Below are positions 4,318 through 21,139 of a stretch of DNA of 24,000 nt, one piece after another. Within the stretch, counting starts at the first letter, position 1. Each line of letters begins with the position of its first letter. The stretch is taken from NCBI GenBank assembly GCA_049273835.1, contig JBASRM010000354.1:26022-50021 (forward strand), read 5' to 3'. The stretch is from Blastocatellia bacterium (GTDB lineage: Bacteria; Acidobacteriota; Blastocatellia; UBA7656). The notes beneath the pieces were generated by a model. That model saw only the letters and a list, made by a program, of their open reading frames with translations. It was not told the DNA's origin and did no database searches. Both the position numbers and the translations under genes were made by a program.

Positions 4318-4908
4318 TTAAACGGACTGTTCATTACCGCCTGCCTTTCTTCCGACCGCCCACACTTCGCCCCCCTCGCGCACCTCCAGGATGATCTGAT
4401 CAAGGGGGCGAGGCGGGGGCCCGTAGAGGACATTCCCCGTCCGCAACTCGAAGCCGCCTTCATGACAGGGACATTCAAGGCGCTGACGCATCGACTCGAA
4501 ATAAACCGGACACGCCAGGTGGGTGCATTTCTGGCCGTAAGCGTAGTACTCACCATCCAGGGACCGCACGAGTATGGCCGTGTCATCTTTGTAGGGGTAG
4601 CGGAAGTTCAAAGATGAGCCAGGCTCGACACTCTGTGCGCCTTCAATTCTCATTGGCTCGTGACTCGTATCCGCACGCGCGTCGAGCGCAGCTTTGCCTG
4701 CTATTCCTGCAGCACTCACAAACAGCGTGGTCGAGGTAAGCGCCAGGAAGTTGCAGAACTCGCGTCGCGTGACCTGCGCCTCTTCGCTGCGCTGGTAAGG
4801 GAAATCTTGTTGATGCGGCGCAATGGCACGGCGCACGTCTCTCTCGTCGGAGAGGCCGCTCTGCGGCGTGACGTTGACATGCGTCCCGTCAGGCTCCTTA
4901 GAATTCAT
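4318..4908 (-). CDS. Rieske [2Fe-2S] protein with an internal twin-arginine/TM anchor-like segment
   Basis: Rieske motifs CTHLACPV and CPCHEGGF are present. A TRREFCNFLALTSTTLFVSAAGIAG segment about 45 aa from the N-terminus resembles a Tat motif plus anchor. The start overlaps the upstream stop by 11 nt. Confidence 0.9.
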   Translation of the reverse strand: MNSKEPDGTHVNVTPQSGLSDERDVRRAIAPHQQDFPYQRSEEAQVTRREFCNFLALTSTTLFVSAAGIAGKAALDARADTSHEPMRIEGAQSVEPGSSLNFRYPYKDDTAILVRSLDGEYYAYGQKCTHLACPVYFESMRQRLECPCHEGGFELRTGNVLYGPPPRPLDQIILEVREGGEVWAVGRKAGGNEQSV

Positions 4909-5551
4909 TGCTCTTGTCTGATTCCTCCACTTGCATATCGATCCACGATTCGCTGGTCTGTTGCTGTTGTGGGCTCAGCCCGAGCTTCCCTTCAAAGACA
5001 CCGCAGCCATCAACAACGACTTCGTCCGAATCGGTGGGTAGCATCAAATAAACCTTCGTCTCGACTTGCTGGTTTCCGAATACATGCACGTTGACGGGCT
5101 GGGTGCGCCGCATCGGGACTATTTGTTCGTAGCGCCCGAACGAGATGGCGCCTGTCGGGCACACCGAAGCGCACATCGGCTTTAGGCCCTCGCTCGTGCG
5201 GTCGTAGCACATGTCGCACTTCATCTGAAGGTGCATCGCGGAGTTGTACTTCGGCACTCCGAAGGGACAAGCATTGATACAGTTGCGACAGTCCAGGCAG
5301 CGCGGCTTAAGGGCCGACAGCACGATGCCCTCCTCTGAGACCTTTATCGCGTCGGCTGGGCACACAAGCGCACAAGTCGGCTCGACACAGTGCATGCAGA
5401 GCGTAGGCATTGTGGACGTGGTTTCGCTGCGGTCGAGATAGTCGACGAAGATCATCGAGTAGCCTTTGTGAGTCCCGCACTCCCGGCAAGCCGCTACGCA
5501 GGCTCGACACCCTATGCAGCGCTGCGGGTCAATGAACATCGTCTCTTCCAT
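4898..5551 (-). CDS. 4Fe-4S multi-cluster ferredoxin subunit (DmsB/NrfC/HybA-like electron-transfer subunit)
   Basis: Four Cys groups are visible: CIGCRACVAAC, CMHCVEPTCALVCP, CLDCRNCINACP and CDMC...CASVCP. A GAGGGTGAG RBS precedes the ATG. Confidence 0.9.
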   Translation of the reverse strand: MEETMFIDPQRCIGCRACVAACRECGTHKGYSMIFVDYLDRSETTSTMPTLCMHCVEPTCALVCPADAIKVSEEGIVLSALKPRCLDCRNCINACPFGVPKYNSAMHLQMKCDMCYDRTSEGLKPMCASVCPTGAISFGRYEQIVPMRRTQPVNVHVFGNQQVETKVYLMLPTDSDEVVVDGCGVFEGKLGLSPQQQQTSESWIDMQVEESDKSNEF

Positions 5552-5565
5552 CTCACCCTCTCACG

Positions 5566-7806
5566 TTACTCGCTGTCGCTCAGGCGGGTCACCGCGCTGC
5601 GCTCCGCTCCGAGCCGGCTCTTTCCGTACAGAGGCAACTCGCGAGTATGAATCTTCTCGATGCGGGCGGCGCAAGCCTTGAACTCCGGTATTTTGGAAGT
5701 AGGATCAAGCGCGGGATTCGTCAATTGATTCGCTGCCTGTTCTTCTCCCCAATGATAAGGGATGAAGATGGTGTCTGGCCGGATCGTCCTGACGATAAGG
5801 GCCGGGAACACTCCCTCGCCTCGGCGCGAAATGACTTTGACGTCCTCGCCGTCGGCTATGCGAAGTCGCGCCGCTGTCTCGGGGTGAATCTCAACGTAAG
5901 GCTCCGGACATTGCTGGACGAGAAAGCCTATGCGCCGCGTCTGATTGCCGGAAAGATACTGGTAGACCACTCGTCCACTCGTGAGTATCAAAGGGAATTC
6001 TGCGTCTGGAACTTCGGCAGGTGGAGCGAACTCGATGGCGTGAAACTTCGCCTTGCCATCAGGGTGGTAAAACCGCTTCTCGAAAAGTCTCGGAGTGCCC
6101 GGATGATCCTCCGATGGGCAAGGCCAGAAGACGCCGTTCTGCCGCTCGATTTTCTCATAGGTAATACCATAGTAATCGGCGTTCCCGCCTTTTGAGGCGA
6201 CACGCAGTTCGTTGAAGATTTCCAGCGGACTGTTGAACTGAAAATACTTCCCGCGTCCAAACCGCCGCGCGATCTCCTGCACGATCCACCAGTCCTGGCG
6301 AGCCTCGCCCGGCGGATCACATGCCTTATTGATCTTAACGACTCGGCCTTCGCTGCTCGCGGTCACACCCTCGTCTTCAGCCCAGGTTGAGCCGGGCAAG
6401 ACCACATCCGCATAGCGCGAGCCTTCGGACATGAAAAAATCAATGCAAACGTAAAACTCCAGTCCCTCAAGCGAGCGCCGAACCTGGTTCGTGTCCGGGA
6501 GGCTCACCATCACGTTGTTGCAGATCGAAAGCAGGCCGCGAATCTCGCCCTCGCGCATCTTCTGGAACATCTCGACCACCGATACGCCCGCCTGCGGTAG
6601 TTCCTCTTCGGGCAAGTCCCAAACGCCGCACACATATTTGCGGTGTTCGGGATTCAGGATAGATCGTTGGCCCGGAAGCTGATCCGCCTTCTGACCGTGC
6701 TCACGCCCGCCCTGCCCATTTCCCTGACCGGTGATCGTCCCGTAACCGCAGCCAGGCGCGCCAATCTTTCCACTCGCAAGCACCAGATTGATGTAGGAGA
6801 GCACGTTGTTGACACCGTTCGTGTGATGCTCGATGCCGCGCGCATGCATGACCATACTGGTCCTGGCACGACCGTATAGAAGGGCGGCCTGCACGATCTT
6901 TTCAGGAGGCACACCGGTAATCTCGGAGGCAACCTGCGGTGTGTAGCGCAACGCGACCTCTCGCGTCTCTTCCCAACCATTCGTGCGCCCGGCAATGAAG
7001 GTCTTGTCCGTCAGACCTTCGTGAATCATGACGTGCAGCATCGCATTTGCGAGCGCGACATCTGTGCCGGGCCTTAGTTGCAGGTGCAGGTCGCCCTGTC
7101 TGGCTGTCGCCGTCTCGCGCGGGTCAACAATGATCCAGCGCCCGCCGTTGTCGCGTTGCTCCCAGAGGAACTTGTTCAACACCGGGAACGTCTCCGCGCA
7201 GTTGGCGCCGGCAATCAGCAACACTTCTGCAAGCGGTATGTCGGTCCATGGGTTTGCGGAGCGGTCAATGCCGAAGGCTTTGTTGTTGCCGGCTGCCGCA
7301 CTCACCATGCAGAGCCGCCCGTTGTAGTCAACATAGCGAGTGCCCAGACCCGCGCGCGCGAACTTACCCATCAGGTATGTCTTCTCGGTGGTGAGCGACG
7401 AACCGGAGTAGACCCCAACAGAGTCCTTGCCGTATTTCGTCTGAAGCTCCTTGAATTTCGCCACAACCAGATCAAGCGCTTCATCCCAAGTCGCGCGCTC
7501 GAACATGCCGTTGCGCTTGATTAATGGATACAAGAGTCGGTCCGGGTGGTGCACCTGAAGGTAAGCTGTGACGCCCTTGGGACACAGCCGGCCCTCGTTC
7601 ACAGGAAAGTCGTAGCGAGGCTCGAACCCGACAACATGGTTCTGCTCGACCAGAAGATTTATGCCACACTGCACCCCACAATAAGGGCAGTGCGTGGGCA
7701 CCAACCTGTCAATGACCCGGTCGGCACGCCAGCCATCATAAGGGGCATCGTGCAAATGCGGGCCAAACTTTTCTGTGATTTTCCTTAAGTTCCCGATTTT
7801 CCCCAT
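5566..7806 (-). CDS. Molybdopterin (bis-MGD) oxidoreductase catalytic subunit, assimilatory/periplasmic nitrate-reductase-like (Nas/NarB/Nap clade), no signal peptide
   Basis: The N-terminal 4Fe-4S motif is CPYCGVQCG...CPKG. NGRLCMVSAAAGNNKAFG resembles the Cys-Mo ligand segment of Nas/Nap enzymes rather than the Fdh CH(U/C) segment. There is no RR Tat motif. The track start is TTG at 7812, but ATG at 7806 seems more likely. Confidence 0.9.
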   Translation of the reverse strand: MGKIGNLRKITEKFGPHLHDAPYDGWRADRVIDRLVPTHCPYCGVQCGINLLVEQNHVVGFEPRYDFPVNEGRLCPKGVTAYLQVHHPDRLLYPLIKRNGMFERATWDEALDLVVAKFKELQTKYGKDSVGVYSGSSLTTEKTYLMGKFARAGLGTRYVDYNGRLCMVSAAAGNNKAFGIDRSANPWTDIPLAEVLLIAGANCAETFPVLNKFLWEQRDNGGRWIIVDPRETATARQGDLHLQLRPGTDVALANAMLHVMIHEGLTDKTFIAGRTNGWEETREVALRYTPQVASEITGVPPEKIVQAALLYGRARTSMVMHARGIEHHTNGVNNVLSYINLVLASGKIGAPGCGYGTITGQGNGQGGREHGQKADQLPGQRSILNPEHRKYVCGVWDLPEEELPQAGVSVVEMFQKMREGEIRGLLSICNNVMVSLPDTNQVRRSLEGLEFYVCIDFFMSEGSRYADVVLPGSTWAEDEGVTASSEGRVVKINKACDPPGEARQDWWIVQEIARRFGRGKYFQFNSPLEIFNELRVASKGGNADYYGITYEKIERQNGVFWPCPSEDHPGTPRLFEKRFYHPDGKAKFHAIEFAPPAEVPDAEFPLILTSGRVVYQYLSGNQTRRIGFLVQQCPEPYVEIHPETAARLRIADGEDVKVISRRGEGVFPALIVRTIRPDTIFIPYHWGEEQAANQLTNPALDPTSKIPEFKACAARIEKIHTRELPLYGKSRLGAERSAVTRLSDSE

Positions 7807-7826
7807 GAACAATTCTCTGAGTGAGT

Positions 7827-12383: not shown

Positions 12384-13307
12384 TCAGGCTGTCAACGTCG
12401 CAAGGGCCGGCTTCAGCGGCCTTGCTATGAGCACCGGGCAAGGTGCCTGACGCAGCACACGATCTGCGTTTGACCCGAATAGCGCTCGCATGCCAAACCC
12501 CGTACCGCTGGCTCCCATGCATATGAGGTCGATGTTCTGCTCATCGGCATACGCCAGCACTTCCCGGTAAGGAAGGCCCTCGCGCACCGCCTGTTTTACA
12601 TTGCACCACAGGCGAGCTTCCGGGGGCACAGAGCTTTGAAGGCGGCTAGCGGCTTCGCAGAATCCCTGGTCGGCCCCGGGCGGCAAAAACGCGATCTCCG
12701 GCGCCGAGTGCTTAACCGAGCGCGTAGGCAATACGTGCAACAGATAGACCTCGGCTTGATACTCCTGGGCAAGCGACAAACCATAGCAGAGCGCCAACTC
12801 AGAGTCGCTGGAAGAGTCGTACGCGACAAGCACTCTCCGCAGTCCAATCTCATTAGTCGTAACCCCCGCCCAGTCGTGTTCGCGGGGATGAGTGATCAGC
12901 ACTGGGCATGGCGCGGTGCGACAGACAGATTCCGCCGTGGAGCCCAGCAAGGCCGCCGCATAAGGCCGCCTGCGCGAGCGCATGATAATCAGGTCGATCC
13001 GTCGCTCCGCCGCCGCCTCTGCAATGGCGGTCTTAGGATCACCATTCACCAGCACTGTGTCCCAGGTGAAGCTTGCGGACATGGGAACCAGCAGGTGCTT
13101 TCGAACTGCCCTGTCGACGATTTGCTTGATGTGTTCGCGCTCACTTGACTCCACTACATCATAGCTGTCGATGCAGTTCATCACGAAAAGCCGGGCGTCA
13201 TAGGCCTTCGCCAGAGCTATGCCGTAACGAAGCGAGTCTTCGGATTCCGGCGTAAGATCGATCGGACACAGAATTCGCTCAAAGATTATTCGCCCGTTGA
13301 TGGCCAT
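12384..13307 (-). CDS. Tandem-domain universal stress protein
   Basis: Two Usp domains are present (ILCPIDLT...DLIIMRSRRR...LGSTAESVCRTAPCPVLI and VLVAYDSS...DLICMGASGTG...FGSNADRVLRQAPCPVLI). A GAGGAGG RBS is present. Confidence 0.9.
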   Translation of the reverse strand: MAINGRIIFERILCPIDLTPESEDSLRYGIALAKAYDARLFVMNCIDSYDVVESSEREHIKQIVDRAVRKHLLVPMSASFTWDTVLVNGDPKTAIAEAAAERRIDLIIMRSRRRPYAAALLGSTAESVCRTAPCPVLITHPREHDWAGVTTNEIGLRRVLVAYDSSSDSELALCYGLSLAQEYQAEVYLLHVLPTRSVKHSAPEIAFLPPGADQGFCEAASRLQSSVPPEARLWCNVKQAVREGLPYREVLAYADEQNIDLICMGASGTGFGMRALFGSNADRVLRQAPCPVLIARPLKPALATLTA

Positions 13308-13354: not shown

Positions 13355-13370
13355 AGCAACGAACGTGCCG
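13355..13370 (-). promoter_or_regulatory. Sigma-54 (RpoN) promoter, minus-strand CGGCACGTTCGTTGCT
   Basis: It matches TGGCACG-N4-TTGCW at every specified position except the first base. The GG to GC spacing is correct. The -12 element lies about 50 nt upstream of the tandem-USP start codon and just downstream of the NtrC-type activator gene. Confidence 0.6.
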
Positions 13371-13495: not shown

Positions 13496-14953
13496 TCACC
13501 GTTCACTTGTTTGGTCTTCGAGTTTCTTGAGCCGGTAGCGAAGCTGATCGCGGGAGATGCCTAAGAGCTCGGCGGCTCGAGTCTGATTGCCGTTGCTCCG
13601 CTCCAGGGCCTGCTTTACAAAAGACATCTCCACGTCATCCAACACAAGACCCTCAGGCGGGAGGCGAAACGCAGGACGGCTAGACTGCAGAGTGGCCGGT
13701 TCAGCTTGTTCGCCGTGCCCGTCCTCAACCCTGCCAGTTCGTCCGGCTGTGGACTTTCGGCCGATGTCCGCTACATCTCTTCCTACTCCACGCGGCAGGT
13801 AAGTCGCAGTTATCAAGTCTCCATCCTCAAGTATCATCACGCGCTCGATGACATTGCGGAGCTCACGCACGTTGCCGGGCCACTGATATTGGCGAAACGT
13901 CTCTGCAACCTCCGGCGTGAGCCCGCGAACACGCTTGCGAAGGCGCTCGTTGAAGTGGTTGACGTAATGCTGCGCGAGAAGGATCGTGTCATCACCGCGC
14001 TCGCGCAACGGAGGAATATCGATTTGTATGACCGAAAGTCTGTAGTACAGATCCAATCGGAACCGTCCGGATTCGCTCTCAGCCTTGAGATCACGATTGG
14101 ACGAAGCAATGACACGCACATCAAGAGGGATGTCTCGGAGGCCGCCGACGCGTCTGAAGGAACCTTCTTCGAGCACTCGAAGCAGCTTGGCCTGCACACT
14201 CAGTTCAAGCTCACCGATCTCATCAAGAAAAAGCGTGCCGCCTTCGGCCTGCTCGAACAAACCCTCTTTTCTCGCCTTCGCATCGGTGAACGCACCCTTC
14301 TCATACCCGAACAATTCGCTCTCGATCAGGTTCGCGGGAATTGCAGCGCAATTGATCGCGATAAATGGTAATTCAGCGCGGCGTGACCCATAGTGAATCG
14401 CTTTGGCGACCATGTCCTTGCCTGTGCCCGATTCGCCTTGAAGAAGAACGGATGAGACCTCGCTCTCCGCCACTTTTTTGGCAAGCGCAAACACATCACG
14501 CAATCCCGGCGATTCGCCCACTATTTGATCGAAGCTGAACTGACGCGCGCGCTCCCGTCGAATGAGACGAACTTCCTTTCGCAGGGACTGTGCTTCGATG
14601 CCGTTGCGAATTGTAATCTGGAGTTCCTCCAGATTAATGGGTTTGCCGACGAAGTCATAAGCGCCGCCCCGCAGTGCGGCAATCGTATCCGCTACGAGCA
14701 CGCTTCCGGTCATCATGATGACGACGGCGTCCGGTTGTCGGCGCTTGATCTCGCGTAAACCGTCGAGCCCCGAACCATCGGGCAGGTTCACATCCAAAAG
14801 CACCGCCGCGGGCTGATCAATATCGAATGTGGAAAGCGCAGCATGCACAGTTCCCGCCTCCACACAGGCATAGCCCCAGTTGCGCAACGCTTCGGTAAGC
14901 GTCCAGCGAATCATCTGATCATCGTCTACGATGAGAACCTTTTCCGTAGCCAT
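13496..14953 (-). CDS. Sigma-54-dependent Fis-family response regulator (NtrC-type enhancer-binding protein)
   Basis: It has a receiver domain (VLIVDDD...DVNLPD) and an AAA+ domain with GESGTGK Walker A, the GAFTDA sigma-54 contact loop and an [13 protein letters not shown] segment. The C-terminal Fis HTH reads [22 protein letters not shown]. Confidence 0.95.
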
Positions 14954-17185: not shown

Positions 17186-17744
17186 GTTGGAGACTCGGGT
17201 CGATCGAGAGAGCCGAGACGTGCGCGCCAGGATGGGGTCCCAGAGCACCCGATTTCCGCCTTCGGTATCCCACTAGGAAGTGATCAGTCTAACCCGGGTC
17301 AAAAGTGTATTGCTCTAAGCAGCACACGCGCCGCCGCCAGGAAACGAAGACAGAAAGTCGCACGAAGAAAGCGCGACCCGCGACCCCCTTTTAACTCGCC
17401 GGCTCGATCCGTATTGGAGGTCTTTCTTCTTTGATATGAGCCCCAGGTGTGTTATTGTCGCAACCTTCACGGGGTTTCACCCACCCGTGACTCAAGCTCG
17501 GACGGGTAACTTGGGTCAAAGTGACAACAATTCTGGCTCGTTTTCCGAACCTGAGTCATTAGGCCGCATCGGATCGGATAGCCCTTTTAGGTGATGAGTC
17601 AAAACTTGATTTAGCTGATCTTGGAGGGGATAAGGGCCGATGCCCTTCGGTTAGTATCTGCTTAGTAATGTTAAGGTTAGAGTTGGAGACGAGTTGAGTT
17701 TTTAGCGGGTATGTCAATTGCTCTGACCTTCATCACGCCTTCGT

Positions 17745-18839
17745 ATGGAATTTCTTAGTCGGCCGACCCATACAAGGCTGCTTTACCTTTTTTCACTCAC
17801 AGTATTTATGAAACTCTCAAGTCGCATCAAAATGTATCTTCGCGCTTACAGGTTTATGGCGAAGGGTCTTTTGTCGACCAACCATCCTGTGCTCGCGCAC
17901 GTCATCCCAATGCGACGATGCAATCTTGCCTGCACATATTGCAATGAATACAACGATTACTCTAAGCCCGTGCCCACCGAGGTAATGTTCGAACGGCTGG
18001 ACAAGCTTGCAGACCTGGGCACTACCGCCATTATCATCAGCGGCGGTGAACCGTTGATGCATCCGGAGATCGAGCGGATAGTCGCAAAGATCAGGCGACG
18101 AGGGATGCTGGCCTGCATGATTACAAATGGATACCTTCTGACCAAGGATAAGATTCAAAGACTCAACGCGGCGGGTCTCGAATACATGCAGATAAGTATC
18201 GACAACGTTCGGCCCGATGATGTGTCAAAAAAGAGTCTCAAGGTTTTGGATAAGAAACTTGTTTGGCTGTCGCAGCTCGCGGAGTTCAGGGTAAACATAA
18301 ACTCGGTGATCGGCGGCGGGATAAAGACTCCAGAGGATGCGCTGACTGTCGGCGTGCGCGCAGTCGGATTGGGATTCTCTAGTTCGTTGGGAATCATTCA
18401 CGACGGTCTTGGAACGCTAAAGCCGCTGAAGGGAATTGAACGTGACATTTATTTCAAGATGAAGGATCTTGGGAAGAAGGGTCACGTTCGATGGAATGCG
18501 TTTCAAAAAAACCTGGTTGACGGCAAACCTAATCGATGGCGTTGCCGGGCCGGAGGGCGATACTTGTACATTTGCGAGGATGGGCTTGTGCACTATTGCT
18601 CGCAGCAGCGCGGCTATCCAGGCGTGCCTTTGAGCGGCTACACCCGGAAGGATGTCCGCAGAGAGTACCTGACCAAGAAGGCATGCGCGCCCTATTGCAC
18701 CATCGCCTGCGTGCATCAGGTTGCAACGTTCGACAACTGGCGCGATCCGCAAAAGCTTGGCGTTAAGGGTTCCGTACAGCGTGAGTCGGTGCAGGCCATA
18801 AAGACGCTGTATCAAATTGAGCAAACCGAAAAAGCGTAG
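17745..18839 (+). CDS. Radical SAM enzyme with a Cys-rich (SPASM/twitch-like) C-terminal region
   Basis: It carries the [11 protein letters not shown] (CxxxCxxC) motif and [14 protein letters not shown]-terminal cysteines are RCRAGG...[13 protein letters not shown]...CAPYCTIAC. There is no N-terminal B12-binding domain. The start is uncertain (17745, 17808 or 17832) and none has a good RBS. Confidence 0.88.
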
Positions 18840-18982
18840 TTCCGGATTCTTTGGTGTGCGCCCGAATGTTTCGGGCCCGTTCGCAGCAATGATAACTGAG
18901 CGCCGGTCAAGTCCCGGCGCATACGAATAACAAGTGGCGGAGTTGATGTGTGGTTGACGCTTCGCTCACGAGGAGAAAGAAA

Positions 18983-21076
18983 ATGCAAAAACCTGTAAAG
19001 TACGCGGAGAAGGGATTGACCTACGTCGCGCGAGGCGGATGGTCGGTGTTTGAGCGGCTCAATCGCATCAAGCCCAACCCTTCTTTCACGCCCAAGTGGT
19101 CTGATAAACCGCTGCTGAAGTCTTATCAGAAGACCAAGCCGCCGTTGGGCTGGCCGCGCACGACCGATTCATTGTGCCCTAAATGTATCCCTGAAATTCG
19201 ACAACAGATTGTAGACGGCAAGCTGCCGCATGAAATCTTGCTTAACGAGAGAGTCGGAGAGATCAAGGCCCAGATAGTCGAGCGCGACGGCAAAATCCTG
19301 ATGATCAAGGACTGCGAGAAGCACGGCCATTTCGAAGACGTGATGTCAATCGACCCCGCGTTCTTTAAGCATCTCGAGGAGGTCTTCCCGGGCCGGGACA
19401 TACGCGCTCACAACGACGAGAAGCTTCATAAGCACGGCTCGAGTACGATCAAGCACGGACGCGGCTCGGTGCTTACCGTGGACCTTACCAACCGATGCAA
19501 CATGATGTGCGATCCGTGTTTCATGGACGCCAATCAGGTCGGGTTCGTGCACGAGCTCACCTGGGAAGACATCAAGACACTTCTTGATAACGCAATCTCG
19601 CTCAAGCCGCGTCGTCAGATGTCAGTACAGTTTTCGGGCGGCGAACCTACGATGTCGCCTTACTTCCTGGACGCCGTGCGGTATGCTCGCAAAGTCGGCT
19701 ACAACAGCGTTCAAGCCGCCACCAACGGGATTGAGTTCGCCAAGAGCCCTGAGTTCTGCAAACAAGCAGCGGAAGCCGGCCTTCGATACGCCTATCTGCA
19801 GTTCGACGGAATCGGCAATGCCGCCAATGAGCACCGCAAGGTCGGCAACCTGTTCGACGTAAAGCTGCGCGCCATTGAGAACCTCTATGCAGCGGGGGTG
19901 GATCTGGTGCCGGTGACTACAATCGTAAACGGCATAAACAATGAACAGGTTGGCCGGATCATTCAGTTTGCTCTGGACAATCCCAAGAAAATCAACTTCC
20001 TTTCTTTTCAGCCGGTCTCATTCACCGGGCGCGACGAAGAGATAACCGACGAGCGACGTTTTGCGCAGCGGTACACCCTGTCGCATATGGCTCACGACGT
20101 GAAGAATCAGACGGGGCTTGGCGAGCCATTGCGGGATTGGTTCCCTATCTCTTTCATGAGTACGTTCACCGACTGGGCCGACCTTGTTCACGGACCGCAA
20201 AACGATTGGGGACAGCTCACTTGCGGGTGCCATCCGAACTGCGGAATAGGCATGGCCGTGATGATCGACAAGGAAACAAAGGAGTCGGCCCCGGTCACGG
20301 CATTTCTCGACGCGGAGCAACTGGCGAAGGACGTGATGAAAGTCAACGATGCCGCGCGGGGCAAGTTTCTATCAGTGGTCGGGATGGCGCTTGCCGTGAT
20401 GCGCAACTATGATCCGTTCAAGGCGCCAACGCATTTCAGACTGACAGACCTGTTGAAGAAATTCGACAAGACCTTTGGAGCAACCGGAACGGACTACGGC
20501 AAGGTGTCGGGTGAGCGAACCGCGCAAGATATCGAGAAGCGACGCGCCGACCGCTGGAATTTCCTGTTCATAGCCGGAATGTGGTTCCAGGACCTTTTCA
20601 ACTATGACTTCCGTCGCACCGAGCAGTGCATTATCCCCTACGCGACCCAGGAGGGCGAGATATCATTCTGCGCTTACAACACCGGCGTGGGCTGGCGTCA
20701 GATCATTGAGAAGATGCATATGACCGCGACCCTTACCAAGTGGTATGAAGAGAATGGCCGGCACGAAATCTTCGCCGGCGGCAAGTCAGTCGCTTTAGAC
20801 AGCAATCAACACTCGCTGGTGCTGGACGAGTCGCTCGTCACCAAAGACATTCAGCACGATCTGGATGAGTTGGGCATCGCAAAGAATTCTCGAGAAGAGA
20901 AACTGCGAAAGCAGCGAGATCGCATCCGCGAACAACAAGAGAATGAGCGAATGGCGAAGCTCTACAGACAGCATGTGCTAAAAGAGCCGGCGGCGCCGGA
21001 GGCTCAGATCGTTCAACTCCAGTTGAAGAAGTCAAAGCCGCAACCCGAAGTTACTCCTGCAGGCTTTGGTGATTAG
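18983..21076 (+). CDS. Large radical SAM enzyme, Tes/GDGT-MAS (tetraether lipid synthase)-like
   Basis: The track start is GTG at 18950, but I prefer ATG at 18983 (AGGAGA + 6 nt). An N-terminal Zn-ribbon/rubredoxin-like segment reads CPKC...CEKHGH. The cluster motif is CNMMCDPC and FSGGEPT is present. The long C-terminal extension carries CGCHPNCG and FQDLFNYDFRRTEQCIIPY...ISFCAYN, which I recall from the Tes/GDGT-MAS family. The tail is charged and low-complexity. The rSAM call is secure. The Tes assignment is about 0.6. Confidence 0.85.
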   Translation: MQKPVKYAEKGLTYVARGGWSVFERLNRIKPNPSFTPKWSDKPLLKSYQKTKPPLGWPRTTDSLCPKCIPEIRQQIVDGKLPHEILLNERVGEIKAQIVERDGKILMIKDCEKHGHFEDVMSIDPAFFKHLEEVFPGRDIRAHNDEKLHKHGSSTIKHGRGSVLTVDLTNRCNMMCDPCFMDANQVGFVHELTWEDIKTLLDNAISLKPRRQMSVQFSGGEPTMSPYFLDAVRYARKVGYNSVQAATNGIEFAKSPEFCKQAAEAGLRYAYLQFDGIGNAANEHRKVGNLFDVKLRAIENLYAAGVDLVPVTTIVNGINNEQVGRIIQFALDNPKKINFLSFQPVSFTGRDEEITDERRFAQRYTLSHMAHDVKNQTGLGEPLRDWFPISFMSTFTDWADLVHGPQNDWGQLTCGCHPNCGIGMAVMIDKETKESAPVTAFLDAEQLAKDVMKVNDAARGKFLSVVGMALAVMRNYDPFKAPTHFRLTDLLKKFDKTFGATGTDYGKVSGERTAQDIEKRRADRWNFLFIAGMWFQDLFNYDFRRTEQCIIPYATQEGEISFCAYNTGVGWRQIIEKMHMTATLTKWYEENGRHEIFAGGKSVALDSNQHSLVLDESLVTKDIQHDLDELGIAKNSREEKLRKQRDRIREQQENERMAKLYRQHVLKEPAAPEAQIVQLQLKKSKPQPEVTPAGFGD

Positions 21077-21104: not shown

Positions 21105-21139
21105 AGGCCGCCGAGTTGATTCGGCGGCCTTTTGATTTG
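21105..21139 (+). terminator. Rho-independent terminator of the radical-SAM operon
   Basis: A 10-bp GC-rich stem AGGCCGCCGA / TCGGCGGCCT with loop GTTGAT is followed by TTTGATTT. It begins 29 nt after the stop codon. Confidence 0.75.

What the first reader, a model, noticed from the sequence alone, without database searches (positions are those of the whole stretch)
17745..21076. Two-gene radical-SAM operon whose large member resembles a bacterial homologue of the archaeal tetraether-lipid synthase (Tes/GDGT-MAS)
Seen in the sequence:
- The 697-aa protein has an N-terminal CPKC...CEKHGH metal-binding knuckle, a CNMMCDPC radical-SAM cluster motif, and a roughly 350-aa C-terminal extension with CGCHPNCG and FQDLFNYDFRRTEQCIIPY...FCAYN motifs.
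- Directly upstream, separated by a 143-nt structured spacer, lies a 343-364-aa radical-SAM enzyme with CNLACTYC and a Cys-rich auxiliary-cluster region but no B12 domain.
- One terminator follows the pair.

From memory, the large protein's architecture and C-terminal motifs match the Tes/GDGT-MAS family, which couples two lipid tails to make membrane-spanning tetraethers.

Inference:
- In bacteria, the enzymology of membrane-spanning branched tetraethers (brGDGT) and diabolic-acid lipids is only partly assigned. I know of no dedicated small radical-SAM partner for such an enzyme.
- The partner's size and layout resemble lipid-acting rSAMs such as HpnH more than peptide maturases.
- The neighbourhood looks like a low-oxygen/redox stress regulon (USPs, a PNPOx-family protein, a nitrate-reductase-like complex, CRP/FNR-type operators). 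That would fit reports that oxygen limitation stimulates brGDGT production in Acidobacteria.
Basis: partly seen in the sequence, partly recalled or inferred. Interest (0 to 1): 0.75.

Follow-up and report, generated by a model that had tools for sequence, protein, structure and literature searches.

The report
Acidobacterial Tes-like radical-SAM gene pair
A soil acidobacterium carries a close structural relative of the archaeal enzyme that fuses two lipid tails into membrane-spanning lipids, co-transcribed with a second, uncharacterised radical-SAM enzyme; the first is an already published candidate for making the "brGDGT" climate-proxy lipids, and the pairing is new but confined to one lineage.

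Summary
In detail: two same-strand radical-SAM genes (small 17808-18839, 343 aa; large 18983-21076, 697 aa), a 143-nt spacer and a terminator, with every quoted motif.

The large protein is a genuine Tes/GDGT-MAS homologue (PDB 7tol E=7.5e-64; model TM 0.86-0.87). It belongs to a bacterial sister subfamily: below NCBI's Tes cut-off (318 vs 450 bits), lacking the N-terminal [4Fe-4S] Cys triad, keeping all catalytic C-terminal cluster ligands. Acidobacterial Tes homologues as brGDGT/iso-diabolic-acid candidates have been published since 2022.

The small protein is an Acidobacteriota-wide SPASM/twitch-like radical-SAM family. It is not HpnH and not Gms, the radical-SAM enzyme already reported clustered with bacterial tes. 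It is not a general partner. The genes are adjacent in about 14 Blastocatellia-type loci, always with different flanks. The small gene is absent near 78 orthologous Tes loci elsewhere, and 61 more distant small-gene loci lack Tes.

The low-oxygen/FNR reading is unsupported. The pair instead has a conserved sigma-54-type promoter (15/15 loci) with three fixed-spacing upstream repeats.

Verdict: known enzyme kind, undescribed lineage-restricted operon variant; partner function unknown. Interest moderate.

The parts
17513..17608 (+). Three GTCAwww repeats that are candidate enhancer-binding-protein sites: GGGTCAAAGTGAC 17513-17525, CTGAGTCATTAGGCCGCA 17551-17568, GATGAGTCAAAACTTGA 17592-17608. 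They lie 100-195 bp upstream of the sigma-54-type site.
   Evidence: The blocks are conserved in the pair-bearing loci. The spacing between GTCA cores is fixed at 40 and 43 nt in nearly all loci. TGWGTCAWWW occurs 3 times in the window against 0.52 expected, and two of those are here. That a protein binds here is inferred, not shown.
17707..17722 (+). Sigma-54-type promoter, GGGTATGTCAATTGCT (-24 GG at 17708-17709, -12 GC at 17720-17721). The predicted transcription start is near 17733.
   Evidence: A GG-N8-TTGC site is present in 15 of 15 pair-bearing loci, 87-106 nt upstream of the ATG in 12 of them. Background is 0.15 sites per 450 nt. The two most diverged loci match the consensus better (TGGTACATGGTTTGCA, CGGCATATTGATTGCT). 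A sigma-54 activator gene lies in the window at 13496-14953. The transcription start has not been tested experimentally.
17737..17778 (+). 5'-UTR stem-loop (GCCTTCGTATGG ... CCATACAAGGC) starting about 4 nt after the predicted transcription start.
   Evidence: A hairpin forms at the same place in most pair loci, with different stem sequences that still pair. One pair is UA in 4 sequences and CG in 3. The T-rich tract after it is not consistent, so it is not a reliable attenuator. Its role (mRNA stabilisation?) is inferred.
17808..18839 (+). Small radical-SAM gene, 343 aa. It has CX3CX2C at C38/C42/C45, a C-terminal C246-X12-G-X4-C264 (SPASM-like) plus C256, C293-X3-C297-X3-C301, and a basic N-terminal amphipathic helix.
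   Evidence: Pfam Radical_SAM E=8.1e-22. No NCBIfam model reaches its cut-off. Nine Cys are invariant in 22 + 14 homologues. The AF2 model has pLDDT 65.5, and the top PDB folds are MoaA, SkfB, PqqE and BlsE at TM about 0.5.
18937..18965 (+). Conserved intercistronic hairpin, GCGGAGT...GTG..ACGCTTCGC (family consensus GGCGAAGy-GTGGGA-rGCTTCGC), 5 nt upstream of the Shine-Dalgarno GAGGAG (18970-18975) of the large gene.
   Evidence: Present in 11 of 14 pair loci. 92% of cells are paired; 3 pairs each have one double change; 11/500 shuffles do as well. It is absent upstream of 78 unlinked Tes orthologues. No T-run follows it, so it is not a terminator.
18983..21076 (+). Large radical-SAM gene, 697 aa: an acidobacterial-type Tes/GDGT-MAS homologue. 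It has a rubredoxin-like site (C65, C68, C111, H114), a radical-SAM cluster (C172, C176, C179) and a C-terminal cluster site (H417, C420, M533, C549, C563). It adds N-terminal (1-60) and C-terminal (600-697) extensions and has no [4Fe-4S]N Cys triad.
   Evidence: NCBIfam Tes 317.7 bits, cut-off 450. PDB 7tol E=7.5e-64. AF2 pLDDT 85.7 with TM 0.86-0.87 to 7tol/7tom.
21105..21138 (+). Intrinsic-terminator-like hairpin (AGGCCGCCGAGTTGATTCGGCGGCCT) followed by TTTGATTT. It lies between the pair and the convergent MFS gene, so it could act in both directions.

Best explanation
The locus is a bicistronic operon in a Blastocatellia-type acidobacterium. It is probably transcribed from a sigma-54-dependent promoter near 17707-17722 that is driven by an enhancer-binding protein at three upstream repeats.

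The downstream gene encodes a bacterial-type member of the Tes/GDGT-MAS radical-SAM family. By homology it most likely abstracts a hydrogen from the terminal methyl of one iso-branched (iso-C15) lipid tail, parks the carbon on a sulfur of its C-terminal [4Fe-4S] cluster, and couples it to the tail of a second lipid. The product would be iso-diabolic-acid-based membrane-spanning lipids (tetraesters, and brGDGT precursors). The fold, the radical-SAM site, the rubredoxin-like site and all C-terminal cluster ligands are shown here. The substrate and product are inferred.

The upstream gene encodes a SPASM/twitch-like radical-SAM enzyme from a family conserved across Acidobacteriota, with unknown substrate. 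In this lineage only, it has been joined to the Tes homologue in one transcription unit, so the two are co-expressed and plausibly act in a related process. It is not an obligate subunit or a universal partner.
For: - Large protein: best NCBIfam model is Tes over its full length; PDB GDGT-MAS E=7.5e-64; model pLDDT 85.7 and TM 0.86-0.87 to 7tol/7tom, with the next fold at TM 0.5.
- Ligands: C420, C549, C563, M533 and H417 align with GDGT-MAS C338, C455, C470, M439 and H335. The rubredoxin-like and radical-SAM Cys are also kept.
- Distribution: orthologues at 76-85% identity occur in Acidobacteriaceae, Bryobacterales, Vicinamibacterales and Blastocatellia. These are the subdivisions reported to make iso-diabolic acid, and they lack Mss (PMC13159169).
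- Literature: Tes homologues are proposed for brGDGT. Ca. K. versatilis, with a Tes homologue only, makes iso-DA tetraesters (as reported in PMC13023045).
- Operon: the pair is conserved in about 14 distinct loci with gaps of 0-233 nt and entirely different flanks. No terminator or sigma-54-like site lies in the spacer, and one terminator follows the pair.
- Promoter: GG-N8-TTGC in 15/15 loci against 0.15 expected, with fixed-spacing repeats upstream. A sigma-54 activator is encoded in the window.
Against: - No bacterial Tes homologue has been tested biochemically in the literature I could search (PMC11868695).
- The protein scores below NCBI's Tes equivalog cut-off and lacks the [4Fe-4S]N cluster triad found in archaeal Tes.
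- Sahonero-Canavesi et al. detected Tes homologues in only 3 of 14 iso-DA-producing acidobacteria under stringent criteria, and suggested an alternative pathway.
- Blastocatellia are mostly aerobes (my own knowledge, not tested here), whereas radical-SAM lipid couplers such as Mss worked only anaerobically.
- A functional link between the two genes rests on adjacency in one clade only. Elsewhere they are unlinked, and the small gene's neighbours there (ACT-domain protein, racemase, adenosine deaminase, DinB) say nothing about lipids.
- The promoter assignment is from sequence pattern alone.
Confidence: 0.55

Rival explanations
1. The small radical-SAM enzyme modifies the same membrane-spanning lipid that the Tes homologue makes. 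By analogy with Gms, which is also a SPASM/twitch radical-SAM enzyme, it could form an extra C-C bridge (brGMGT-type) or a ring, or act as a desaturase. The operon would then be a two-step lipid pathway.
For: - The operon is stable, with changing flanks, in about 14 loci.
- Both families are highly conserved across Acidobacteriota.
- There is precedent: gms clusters with tes or mss in bacteria (PMC11214058).
- The protein has a SPASM-like CX12GX4C motif and six auxiliary Cys, and a conserved basic amphipathic N-terminal helix that could sit on a membrane.
Against: - The genes are not adjacent outside one clade (0 of 78 and 0 of 61).
- There is no lipid-binding COG4001-type domain, and the protein is only weakly AhbD-like.
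- The model of the C-terminal domain is poor, with pLDDT below 50 after residue 293, so no pocket can be judged.
- Neighbours elsewhere are not lipid genes.
Confidence: 0.25
2. The two enzymes are functionally unrelated. A housekeeping radical-SAM gene (cofactor, peptide or protein maturation) happened to be placed upstream of the Tes homologue in one lineage, and the two share only a regulatory signal, for example conditions that favour oxygen-sensitive Fe-S/SAM enzymes.
For: - Elsewhere in the phylum both genes are stand-alone and far apart.
- The small protein's nearest characterised relatives are cofactor or peptide maturases: NirJ, PqqE, AhbC, MoaA, and the tungsten-enzyme maturase; MoaA, SkfB, PqqE, BlsE by fold.
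- Only the radical-SAM cores of the two proteins are related.
Against: - The pair has survived wholesale rearrangement of every flanking gene across proteins that have diverged to 70-73% identity.
- It keeps a dedicated conserved promoter region and a conserved intercistronic hairpin.
- That degree of preservation is unusual for an accidental juxtaposition.
Confidence: 0.3
3. The small protein is a dedicated partner (activase, electron-transfer or scaffold subunit) that the bacterial Tes homologue requires, for instance to compensate for the missing [4Fe-4S]N domain.
For: - The genes are directly adjacent and co-oriented under one promoter and one terminator.
- The bacterial-type Tes lacks the surface [4Fe-4S]N cluster of the archaeal enzyme, while the small protein carries auxiliary Cys clusters.
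Against: - Orthologous Tes proteins in Terriglobia, Bryobacterales and Vicinamibacterales also lack the triad's lineage partner next door: no small gene lies within 8 kb in 78 loci.
- Archaeal GDGT-MAS works as a single protein (PMC9433317).
- Gaps of 47-233 nt, with a separate Shine-Dalgarno sequence, argue against tight translational coupling.
Confidence: 0.1
4. The large protein is not a lipid synthase. It could be a pterin C-methylase, as in the legacy MJ0619 annotation that some databases still give its homologues, or a TrsS-like enzyme.
For: - Some JGI homologues are named 7,8-dihydro-6-hydroxymethylpterin dimethyltransferase.
- The TrsS model scores 210 bits.
- The protein falls below the Tes equivalog cut-off and differs in one cluster.
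Against: - The MJ0619 protein itself was shown to be GDGT-MAS, and its pterin activity could not be corroborated (PMC9433317).
- The Tes model scores 108 bits higher than TrsS, which is also far below its own cut-off of 490.
- All ligands of the cluster that carries the lipid-sulfur intermediate are retained.
Confidence: 0.1

Closest known systems
Archaeal tetraether synthase Tes / GDGT-MAS (M. jannaschii MJ0619, PDB 7tol/7tom; M. acetivorans MA_1486)
   Same: - The overall fold matches (TM 0.86-0.87).
- Both have a rubredoxin-like CX2C...CX2H site and a CX3CX2C radical-SAM cluster.
- The C-terminal [4Fe-4S] site is kept, with three Cys and the labile Met.
- The alignment runs along the full length.
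   Different: - Identity is only 28-33%.
- The protein scores below NCBI's equivalog cut-off (318 vs 450 bits).
- The N-terminal auxiliary-cluster triad (C73, C77, C80) is replaced by a Cys-free, His-rich stretch (AHNDEKLHKHGSSTIKHG).
- There is a ~22-residue insertion in the rubredoxin domain, and extra N-terminal (~60 aa) and C-terminal (~100 aa) extensions.
- The presumed substrate is iso-branched fatty acyl/alkyl lipids on glycerol-3-phosphate rather than phytanyl ethers (inferred).
Published bacterial Tes homologues (Edaphobacter aggregans, Ca. Koribacter versatilis, Ca. Solibacter usitatus; Zeng 2022, Halamka 2022)
   Same: - It comes from the same phylum and the same protein family.
- Orthologues at 76-85% identity occur in Edaphobacter, Granulicella, Tunturiibacter, Acidipila and Bryobacterales.
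- Its similarity to archaeal Tes (E about 1e-64, about 30% identity) matches the E. aggregans homologue reported by Zeng et al. (32%, 4e-61).
   Different: - The K. versatilis and S. usitatus top hits are reported as 40-42% identical to archaeal Tes. They may therefore be a different, more archaeal-like paralogue; I could not test this directly.
- None of the papers I could search describes this small radical-SAM neighbour, the missing N-terminal cluster or the sigma-54-type promoter.
gms-tes / gms-mss gene clusters in bacteria (GMGT synthase Gms; Garcia 2024 PNAS)
   Same: A SPASM/twitch-class radical-SAM gene sits next to a bacterial tes homologue in Acidobacteria, and is proposed to modify the membrane-spanning lipid.
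   Different: - Gms is an AhbD homologue (E about 1e-79) of at least 400 aa with a ~100-aa N-terminal COG4001 lipid-binding domain.
- This protein is 343 aa, with only 37 residues before its CX3CX2C.
- It hits the AhbD model at 55.7 bits, over the core only.
Bacterial membrane-spanning lipid synthase Mss (Thermotoga, Clostridia; Sahonero-Canavesi 2022)
   Same: It is a radical-SAM enzyme that couples two fatty-acid tails, and is the demonstrated route to diabolic and iso-diabolic acids in anaerobes.
   Different: - It belongs to a different family from Tes.
- No Mss homologue is reported in Acidobacteria.
- No Mss sequence was available here, so neither protein was compared with it directly.
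   Same: It is a radical-SAM enzyme of similar size that acts on a lipid.
   Different: The HpnH model scores 56.1 bits against a cut-off of 225, and covers only the N-terminal core. Several cofactor or peptide maturase models score higher.

Membership tests
Tes / GDGT-MAS (NCBIfam NF045702 equivalog) | Whole-protein score at or above the curated cut-off (450 bits) | tested here: not met
   The score is 317.7 bits, although positions 2-483 of the 486-position model are covered. Representatives that keep the archaeal-type features score 420-516 bits; the bacterial-type clade scores 171-414.
Tes / GDGT-MAS (NCBIfam NF045702 equivalog) | Four-domain GDGT-MAS fold | tested here: met
   The AF2 model has pLDDT 85.7 and pTM 0.85. 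Foldseek finds 7tol/7tom at E 1e-35 to 1e-37 with target-normalised TM 0.86-0.87; the next hit is MoaA at TM 0.5.
Tes / GDGT-MAS (NCBIfam NF045702 equivalog) | Radical-SAM CX3CX2C cluster | tested here: met
   C172, C176 and C179 align with GDGT-MAS C98, C102 and C105.
Tes / GDGT-MAS (NCBIfam NF045702 equivalog) | Rubredoxin-like mononuclear Fe site, CX2C...CX2H | tested here: met
   C65-X2-C68 ... C111-X2-H114. C111 and H114 align with C33 and H36. Pfam Zn_ribbon_HMPTM E=5.4e-12. The spacer between the two halves is longer (42 vs 20 residues).
Tes / GDGT-MAS (NCBIfam NF045702 equivalog) | N-terminal auxiliary [4Fe-4S]N cluster (C73, C77, C80 + His) | tested here: not met
   No Cys aligns with any of the three positions in the window protein or in its closer relatives P0241-P0302. 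Representatives at 30-36% identity keep the triad.
Tes / GDGT-MAS (NCBIfam NF045702 equivalog) | C-terminal [4Fe-4S]C cluster with three Cys and the labile Met439 | tested here: met
   C420, C549, C563, M533 and H417 align with C338, C455, C470, M439 and H335.
Tes / GDGT-MAS (NCBIfam NF045702 equivalog) | Catalyses tail-to-tail C-C coupling of two membrane lipids | not testable with these tools
   This needs expression or knock-out with lipid LC-MS. Bacterial homologues are 'not experimentally confirmed' (PMC11868695).
Gms (GMGT synthase), considered for the small protein | AhbD-like over the whole length (E about 1e-79 to AhbD) | tested here: not met
   The AhbD model TIGR04545 scores 55.7 bits (cut-off 500), over residues 57-155 only. 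The criterion comes from PMC11214058. No Gms sequence was available for direct comparison.
Gms (GMGT synthase), considered for the small protein | ~100-aa N-terminal COG4001 domain and length of at least 400 aa | tested here: not met
   The protein is 343 aa, and CX3CX2C begins at residue 38, after a single helix.
Gms (GMGT synthase), considered for the small protein | Clusters with tes or mss in bacterial genomes | tested here: met
   It is adjacent to the Tes homologue in about 14 loci of one lineage, but not elsewhere.
SPASM/twitch radical-SAM subgroup, considered for the small protein | C-terminal auxiliary-cluster domain with CX9-15GX4C and further Cys | tested here: inconclusive
   C246-X12-G259-X4-C264 fits the first SPASM motif. 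The second part is CX3CX3C rather than CX2CX5CX3C. There is no Pfam SPASM hit. The nearest folds are twitch/SPASM enzymes at TM about 0.5, and the C-terminal part of the model has low confidence.
HpnH (TIGR03470), considered for the small protein | Score at or above the equivalog cut-off of 225 | tested here: not met
   56.1 bits, over residues 26-190 only.
Mss (bacterial membrane-spanning lipid synthase) | Sequence homology to T. maritima or T. ethanolicus Mss | not tested
   No Mss sequence or model was available in the tools. The literature reports no Mss homologue in Acidobacteria.
Sigma-54-dependent promoter | -24 GG and -12 GC elements exactly 10 nt apart, with TTGC at -12 | tested here: met
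   GGGTATGTCAATTGCT at 17707-17722. The same spacing is found in 15/15 pair loci against 0.15 expected per 450 nt.
Sigma-54-dependent promoter | Upstream activator sites and an enhancer-binding protein in the genome | tested here: inconclusive
   Three conserved repeats with fixed spacing lie 100-195 bp upstream. An NtrC-type activator is encoded at 13496-14953. No cognate activator is conserved next to the pair in other loci, and binding is untested.
Sigma-54-dependent promoter | Transcription start about 12 nt downstream that depends on RpoN | not testable with these tools
   This needs 5'-RACE or RNA-seq and an rpoN mutant.

The most novel reading that the evidence does not exclude
The small protein founds an unrecognised, Acidobacteriota-wide family of lipid-tail-modifying radical-SAM enzymes that lack both a B12 domain and the COG4001 domain. 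It would act on iso-diabolic-acid or brGDGT lipids (bridging, ring closure or another C-H functionalisation). Its fusion into a sigma-54-controlled operon with the bacterial-type tetraether/tetraester synthase in Blastocatellia would then reveal a second missing step of brGDGT biosynthesis and a regulatory switch for it.
Probability: 0.2. Interest if true: 0.8.

Novelty: new variant of a known kind. Interest (0 to 1): 0.45.

Why it matters
Branched GDGTs are among the most widely used terrestrial palaeothermometer and pH proxies, yet the enzymes that make them in Acidobacteria have not been demonstrated. This locus does not change the leading hypothesis that Tes homologues do the tail coupling, but it sharpens it in three ways:

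1. It defines a very strongly conserved acidobacterial subfamily (76-94% identity across classes). This subfamily keeps the catalytic cluster but has lost the N-terminal cluster, and stringent BLAST screens may under-detect it. That could explain the reported '3 of 14' discrepancy.
2. It nominates a concrete second radical-SAM gene to test alongside it.
3. It provides a conserved sigma-54-type control region, which makes the question 'what signal turns membrane-spanning lipid synthesis on?' experimentally approachable.

If the small enzyme has nothing to do with lipids, the finding reduces to one more catalogued Tes homologue.

Tried and rejected
1. Riboswitch or cis-regulatory RNA in the ~350-nt conserved leader. 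Rfam found nothing at gathering or at E<=10. RNAalifold gave only -9 kcal/mol with 2 covarying pairs. The conserved blocks are better explained as DNA signals: a GG-N10-GC promoter and repeated GTCAwww sites at fixed spacing.
2. A leader shared with the unlinked genes, which would have argued for co-regulation. An nhmmer profile of the leader hits only pair-bearing loci. GG-N8-TTGC sites are at chance level upstream of unlinked small genes (9/60) and unlinked Tes orthologues (6/78).
3. FNR/CRP box or canonical TGGCAC-N5-TTGC upstream of the pair. None was found at up to 2 mismatches. The real site has 3 mismatches to that strict pattern.
4. A conserved functional neighbour of the Tes orthologue outside Blastocatellia. 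Only housekeeping-type genes and one secreted protein of unknown function turned up.
5. Context clues from the neighbours of the unlinked small gene. These were an ACT-domain protein, a racemase, adenosine deaminase, a permease and DinB, which are uninformative.
6. Same-genome co-occurrence of the unlinked genes. Contig lengths and assembly accessions did not overlap between my samples.
7. AFDB fold search for the small protein. The library was unavailable.
8. Relatedness of the two proteins beyond the radical-SAM core. There is none.
9. Supplementary Table S21 of Sahonero-Canavesi 2022, to see which acidobacteria scored as Tes-positive. It is not held.

Full report
OBSERVATION. Two co-oriented ORFs lie where the finding says.

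The large ORF is listed from a GTG at 18950 (708 aa). It carries every quoted motif: CPKC...CEKHGH, CNMMCDPC, CGCHPNCG and FQDLFNYDFRRTEQCIIPY...FCAYN.

The small ORF runs from ATG 17745 (364 aa). Homologues are mostly 339-345 aa and conservation starts at ATG 17808, so the product is 343 aa. It has CNLACTYC, six further invariant Cys and no B12 domain.

The spacer is 143 nt. Taken as a whole it folds no better than shuffled sequence (z = -0.74). A GC-rich hairpin followed by a T-run comes after the pair.

THE LARGE PROTEIN. Its best NCBIfam model is the Tes equivalog, covered end to end at 317.7 bits, below the curated cut-off of 450. Its best solved-structure relative is GDGT-MAS (7tol, E=7.5e-64). 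An AlphaFold model (pLDDT 85.7) superposes on 7tol/7tom at target-normalised TM 0.86-0.87, and the next fold (MoaA) reaches only 0.5.

I took the metal ligands from Lloyd et al. 2022 (PMC9433317) and mapped them by alignment:
- The rubredoxin-like site is kept (C65, C68, C111, H114).
- The radical-SAM cluster is kept (C172, C176, C179).
- All ligands of the C-terminal cluster that carries the lipid-sulfur intermediate are kept (C420, C549, C563, M533 = Met439, H417).
- The N-terminal auxiliary-cluster triad (C73, C77, C80) is absent. A Cys-free, His-rich segment takes its place.

The same loss marks the closer database representatives at 39-64% identity. Representatives at 30-36% identity keep the triad and score 420-516 bits on the Tes model. 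The protein is therefore a member of a bacterial sister subfamily of canonical Tes, not an equivalog by NCBI's definition.

Orthologues are remarkably conserved. They are 83-94% identical in Blastocatellia and unclassified Acidobacteriota MAGs. They are still 76-85% identical in Acidobacteriaceae (including Acidipila rosea, Granulicella aggregans, Tunturiibacter psychrotolerans and Edaphobacter), Bryobacterales and Vicinamibacterales.

WHAT IS ALREADY KNOWN.
- Zeng et al. 2022 reported 456 bacterial Tes homologues, named Acidobacteria explicitly, and proposed them for brGDGT synthesis. The E. aggregans homologue they cite (32% identity, E=4e-61) matches the similarity level seen here.
- Halamka et al. 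2022 built a brGDGT pathway on S. usitatus Tes homologues.
- Sahonero-Canavesi et al. 2022 demonstrated a different radical-SAM enzyme, Mss, in anaerobes. They found no Mss in Acidobacteria, and found Tes homologues in only 3 of 14 iso-diabolic-acid producers under stringent criteria.
- A 2025 study states that bacterial Tes function has 'not been experimentally confirmed'.
- A 2026 paper summarises Chen et al. 2025 (not held in the library). Ca. K. versatilis, with a Tes homologue only, makes iso-diabolic tetraesters, and S. usitatus, with Tes plus Ger, makes brGDGTs.

THE SMALL PROTEIN. Only its N-terminal radical-SAM core matches known families. The best scores are NirJ, PqqE, AhbC and MoaA at 60-70 bits, all far below their cut-offs. 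HpnH scores 56 bits against a cut-off of 225.

Its model (pLDDT 65.5) resembles MoaA, SkfB, PqqE, BlsE and viperin at TM about 0.5. The C-terminal region has a SPASM-like C246-X12-G-X4-C264 motif, plus C256 and C293-X3-C297-X3-C301.

Garcia et al. 2024 had already described a radical-SAM gene, gms, clustered with tes or mss in Acidobacteria and Planctomycetes. Gms is defined as an AhbD homologue of at least 400 aa with a 100-aa N-terminal COG4001 domain. This protein fails each of those criteria, so it belongs to a different family. Beyond the radical-SAM core it is unrelated to the Tes family.

IS IT A PARTNER? In relatives whose small protein is at least 70% identical, the two genes are always adjacent and co-oriented, with gaps of 0-233 nt. 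This holds for the window, L003, L004, L005, L084, L086, L087, L090, L164, L165-167, L168, L169, L170/171 and L172. Every flanking gene differs from locus to locus. That is the signature of a selected two-gene unit.

The linkage stops there:
- Among 78 loci carrying the orthologous large gene in other acidobacterial orders, none has the small gene within 8 kb.
- Among 61 metagenomic loci carrying a 59-68%-identical small gene with room downstream, none has a Tes homologue within 5 kb.
- That second tier includes Ca. Sulfotelmatobacter (Terriglobia), a genus that also has the Tes orthologue (L067).

So both families are phylum-wide, but they are joined in only one clade. Neighbours of the unlinked genes give no functional clue. 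I could not test whether the two genes always co-occur in the same genomes.

REGULATION. It is not conserved with the pair, and no FNR/CRP-type box lies upstream.

Instead, the ~350 nt upstream of the small gene is conserved in blocks in all pair-bearing loci:
- One block, GGGTATGTCAATTGCT (17707-17722), has the sigma-54 -24 GG / -12 TTGC arrangement. The same spacing is present in 15 of 15 loci against 0.15 expected per 450 nt, and the two most diverged loci match the consensus better.
- Three GTCAwww repeats lie 100-195 bp upstream, at fixed 40- and 43-nt spacing. This is where an enhancer-binding protein would be expected to bind.
- A 5'-UTR hairpin follows the predicted start, and its stem covaries between loci.
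- A conserved hairpin sits just upstream of the large gene's Shine-Dalgarno sequence.

None of these elements occurs upstream of the unlinked genes. An RNA-switch reading of the leader was considered and rejected.

MECHANISM AND VERDICT. Most likely (about 0.55), the large enzyme is the acidobacterial tail-to-tail lipid coupler. It would use the GDGT-MAS chemistry on iso-C15 tails to make iso-diabolic-acid-based membrane-spanning lipids. The small enzyme would be a co-expressed radical-SAM enzyme of unknown substrate that was recruited into a sigma-54-dependent operon in one lineage.

Whether the small enzyme modifies the same lipid (about 0.25), is unrelated (about 0.3) or is a required partner (about 0.1) cannot be decided from sequence alone.

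The enzyme kind is known. The operon variant, the loss of the N-terminal cluster and the promoter architecture appear to be undescribed in the literature I could search. Interest is moderate: the locus gives brGDGT research a concrete second candidate gene and a regulatory handle, but it does not overturn anything.

Noticed in passing
window 17431-17458: A sigma-70-like site (TTGATA-16-TATTGT) lies about 55 nt upstream of the first GTCA repeat. Its TATTGT/TATTAT element is conserved in the five closest loci. It could be a second promoter, or simply part of the conserved control region.
   Followed up: partly
window 13355-13369 (- strand): A good sigma-54-type site (GGCACGTTCGTTGCT) lies about 50 nt upstream of the tandem-USP gene (12384-13307, -), directly downstream of the NtrC-type activator gene (13496-14953, -). 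It does not share the GTCAwww repeats of the radical-SAM operon, so a different activator is likely.
   Followed up: partly
window 4318-7812 (- strand): The 'nitrate-reductase-like complex' is a molybdopterin oxidoreductase (5566-7812) with a 4Fe-4S dicluster subunit (4898-5551) and a Rieske protein (4318-4908). That subunit set is not canonical NarGHI. Its substrate is unknown.
   Followed up: no
window, whole: FNR-like TTGAT-N4-ATCAA matches at up to 2 mismatches are about twice the expected number (16 vs 8.1; 1 of 100 shuffles reaches 16). One-mismatch sites lie at 2107, 8121, 14352 and 23021. None lies upstream of the radical-SAM pair.
   Followed up: partly
L048:6741-7670 and 20 other Terriglobia loci: A ~309-aa protein with a signal-peptide-like N-terminus and no Pfam match lies directly upstream of the Tes orthologue, on the same strand, in 21 of the loci that lack the small radical-SAM gene. 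It may be a lineage-specific neighbour of Tes in Acidobacteriaceae.
   Followed up: partly
L001-L003: 4912-7422: In Blastocatellia bacterium AA13, a fused AMP-binding + acyltransferase gene (Aas-like acyl-lipid enzyme) lies about 1.5 kb upstream of the pair. It is lipid-related, but it is not seen at the other pair loci.
   Followed up: no
proteins P0249, P0257, P0264, P0268, P0302 (representatives at 35-55% identity): Several bacterial-type relatives of the large protein have lost one or more ligands of the catalytic C-terminal cluster (C420 to A/G/H, C549 to S, M533 to T/V/I). The Tes-like clade therefore contains members that probably do different chemistry or are inactive.
   Followed up: partly
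L091-L163 (loci with small-gene homologues at 59-68% identity): Where the small gene is unlinked from Tes, about a third of loci share an upstream same-strand series: amino-acid permease, adenosine deaminase, Asp/Glu racemase, ACT-domain protein. A DinB-family gene converges downstream. An adenosine deaminase near a radical-SAM gene could relate to 5'-deoxyadenosine salvage; that is speculative.
   Followed up: partly
window 18983-21076, residues 141-158 of the large protein: The segment that replaces the archaeal [4Fe-4S]N Cys triad is His-rich (AHNDEKLHKHGSSTIKHG) and is modelled at low confidence (pLDDT about 60). Whether it binds a metal is unknown.
   Followed up: no
window 18221-18230: A third exact copy of the TGWGTCAWWW repeat (TGTGTCAAAA) lies inside the small gene's coding sequence. 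It is probably coincidental.
   Followed up: no
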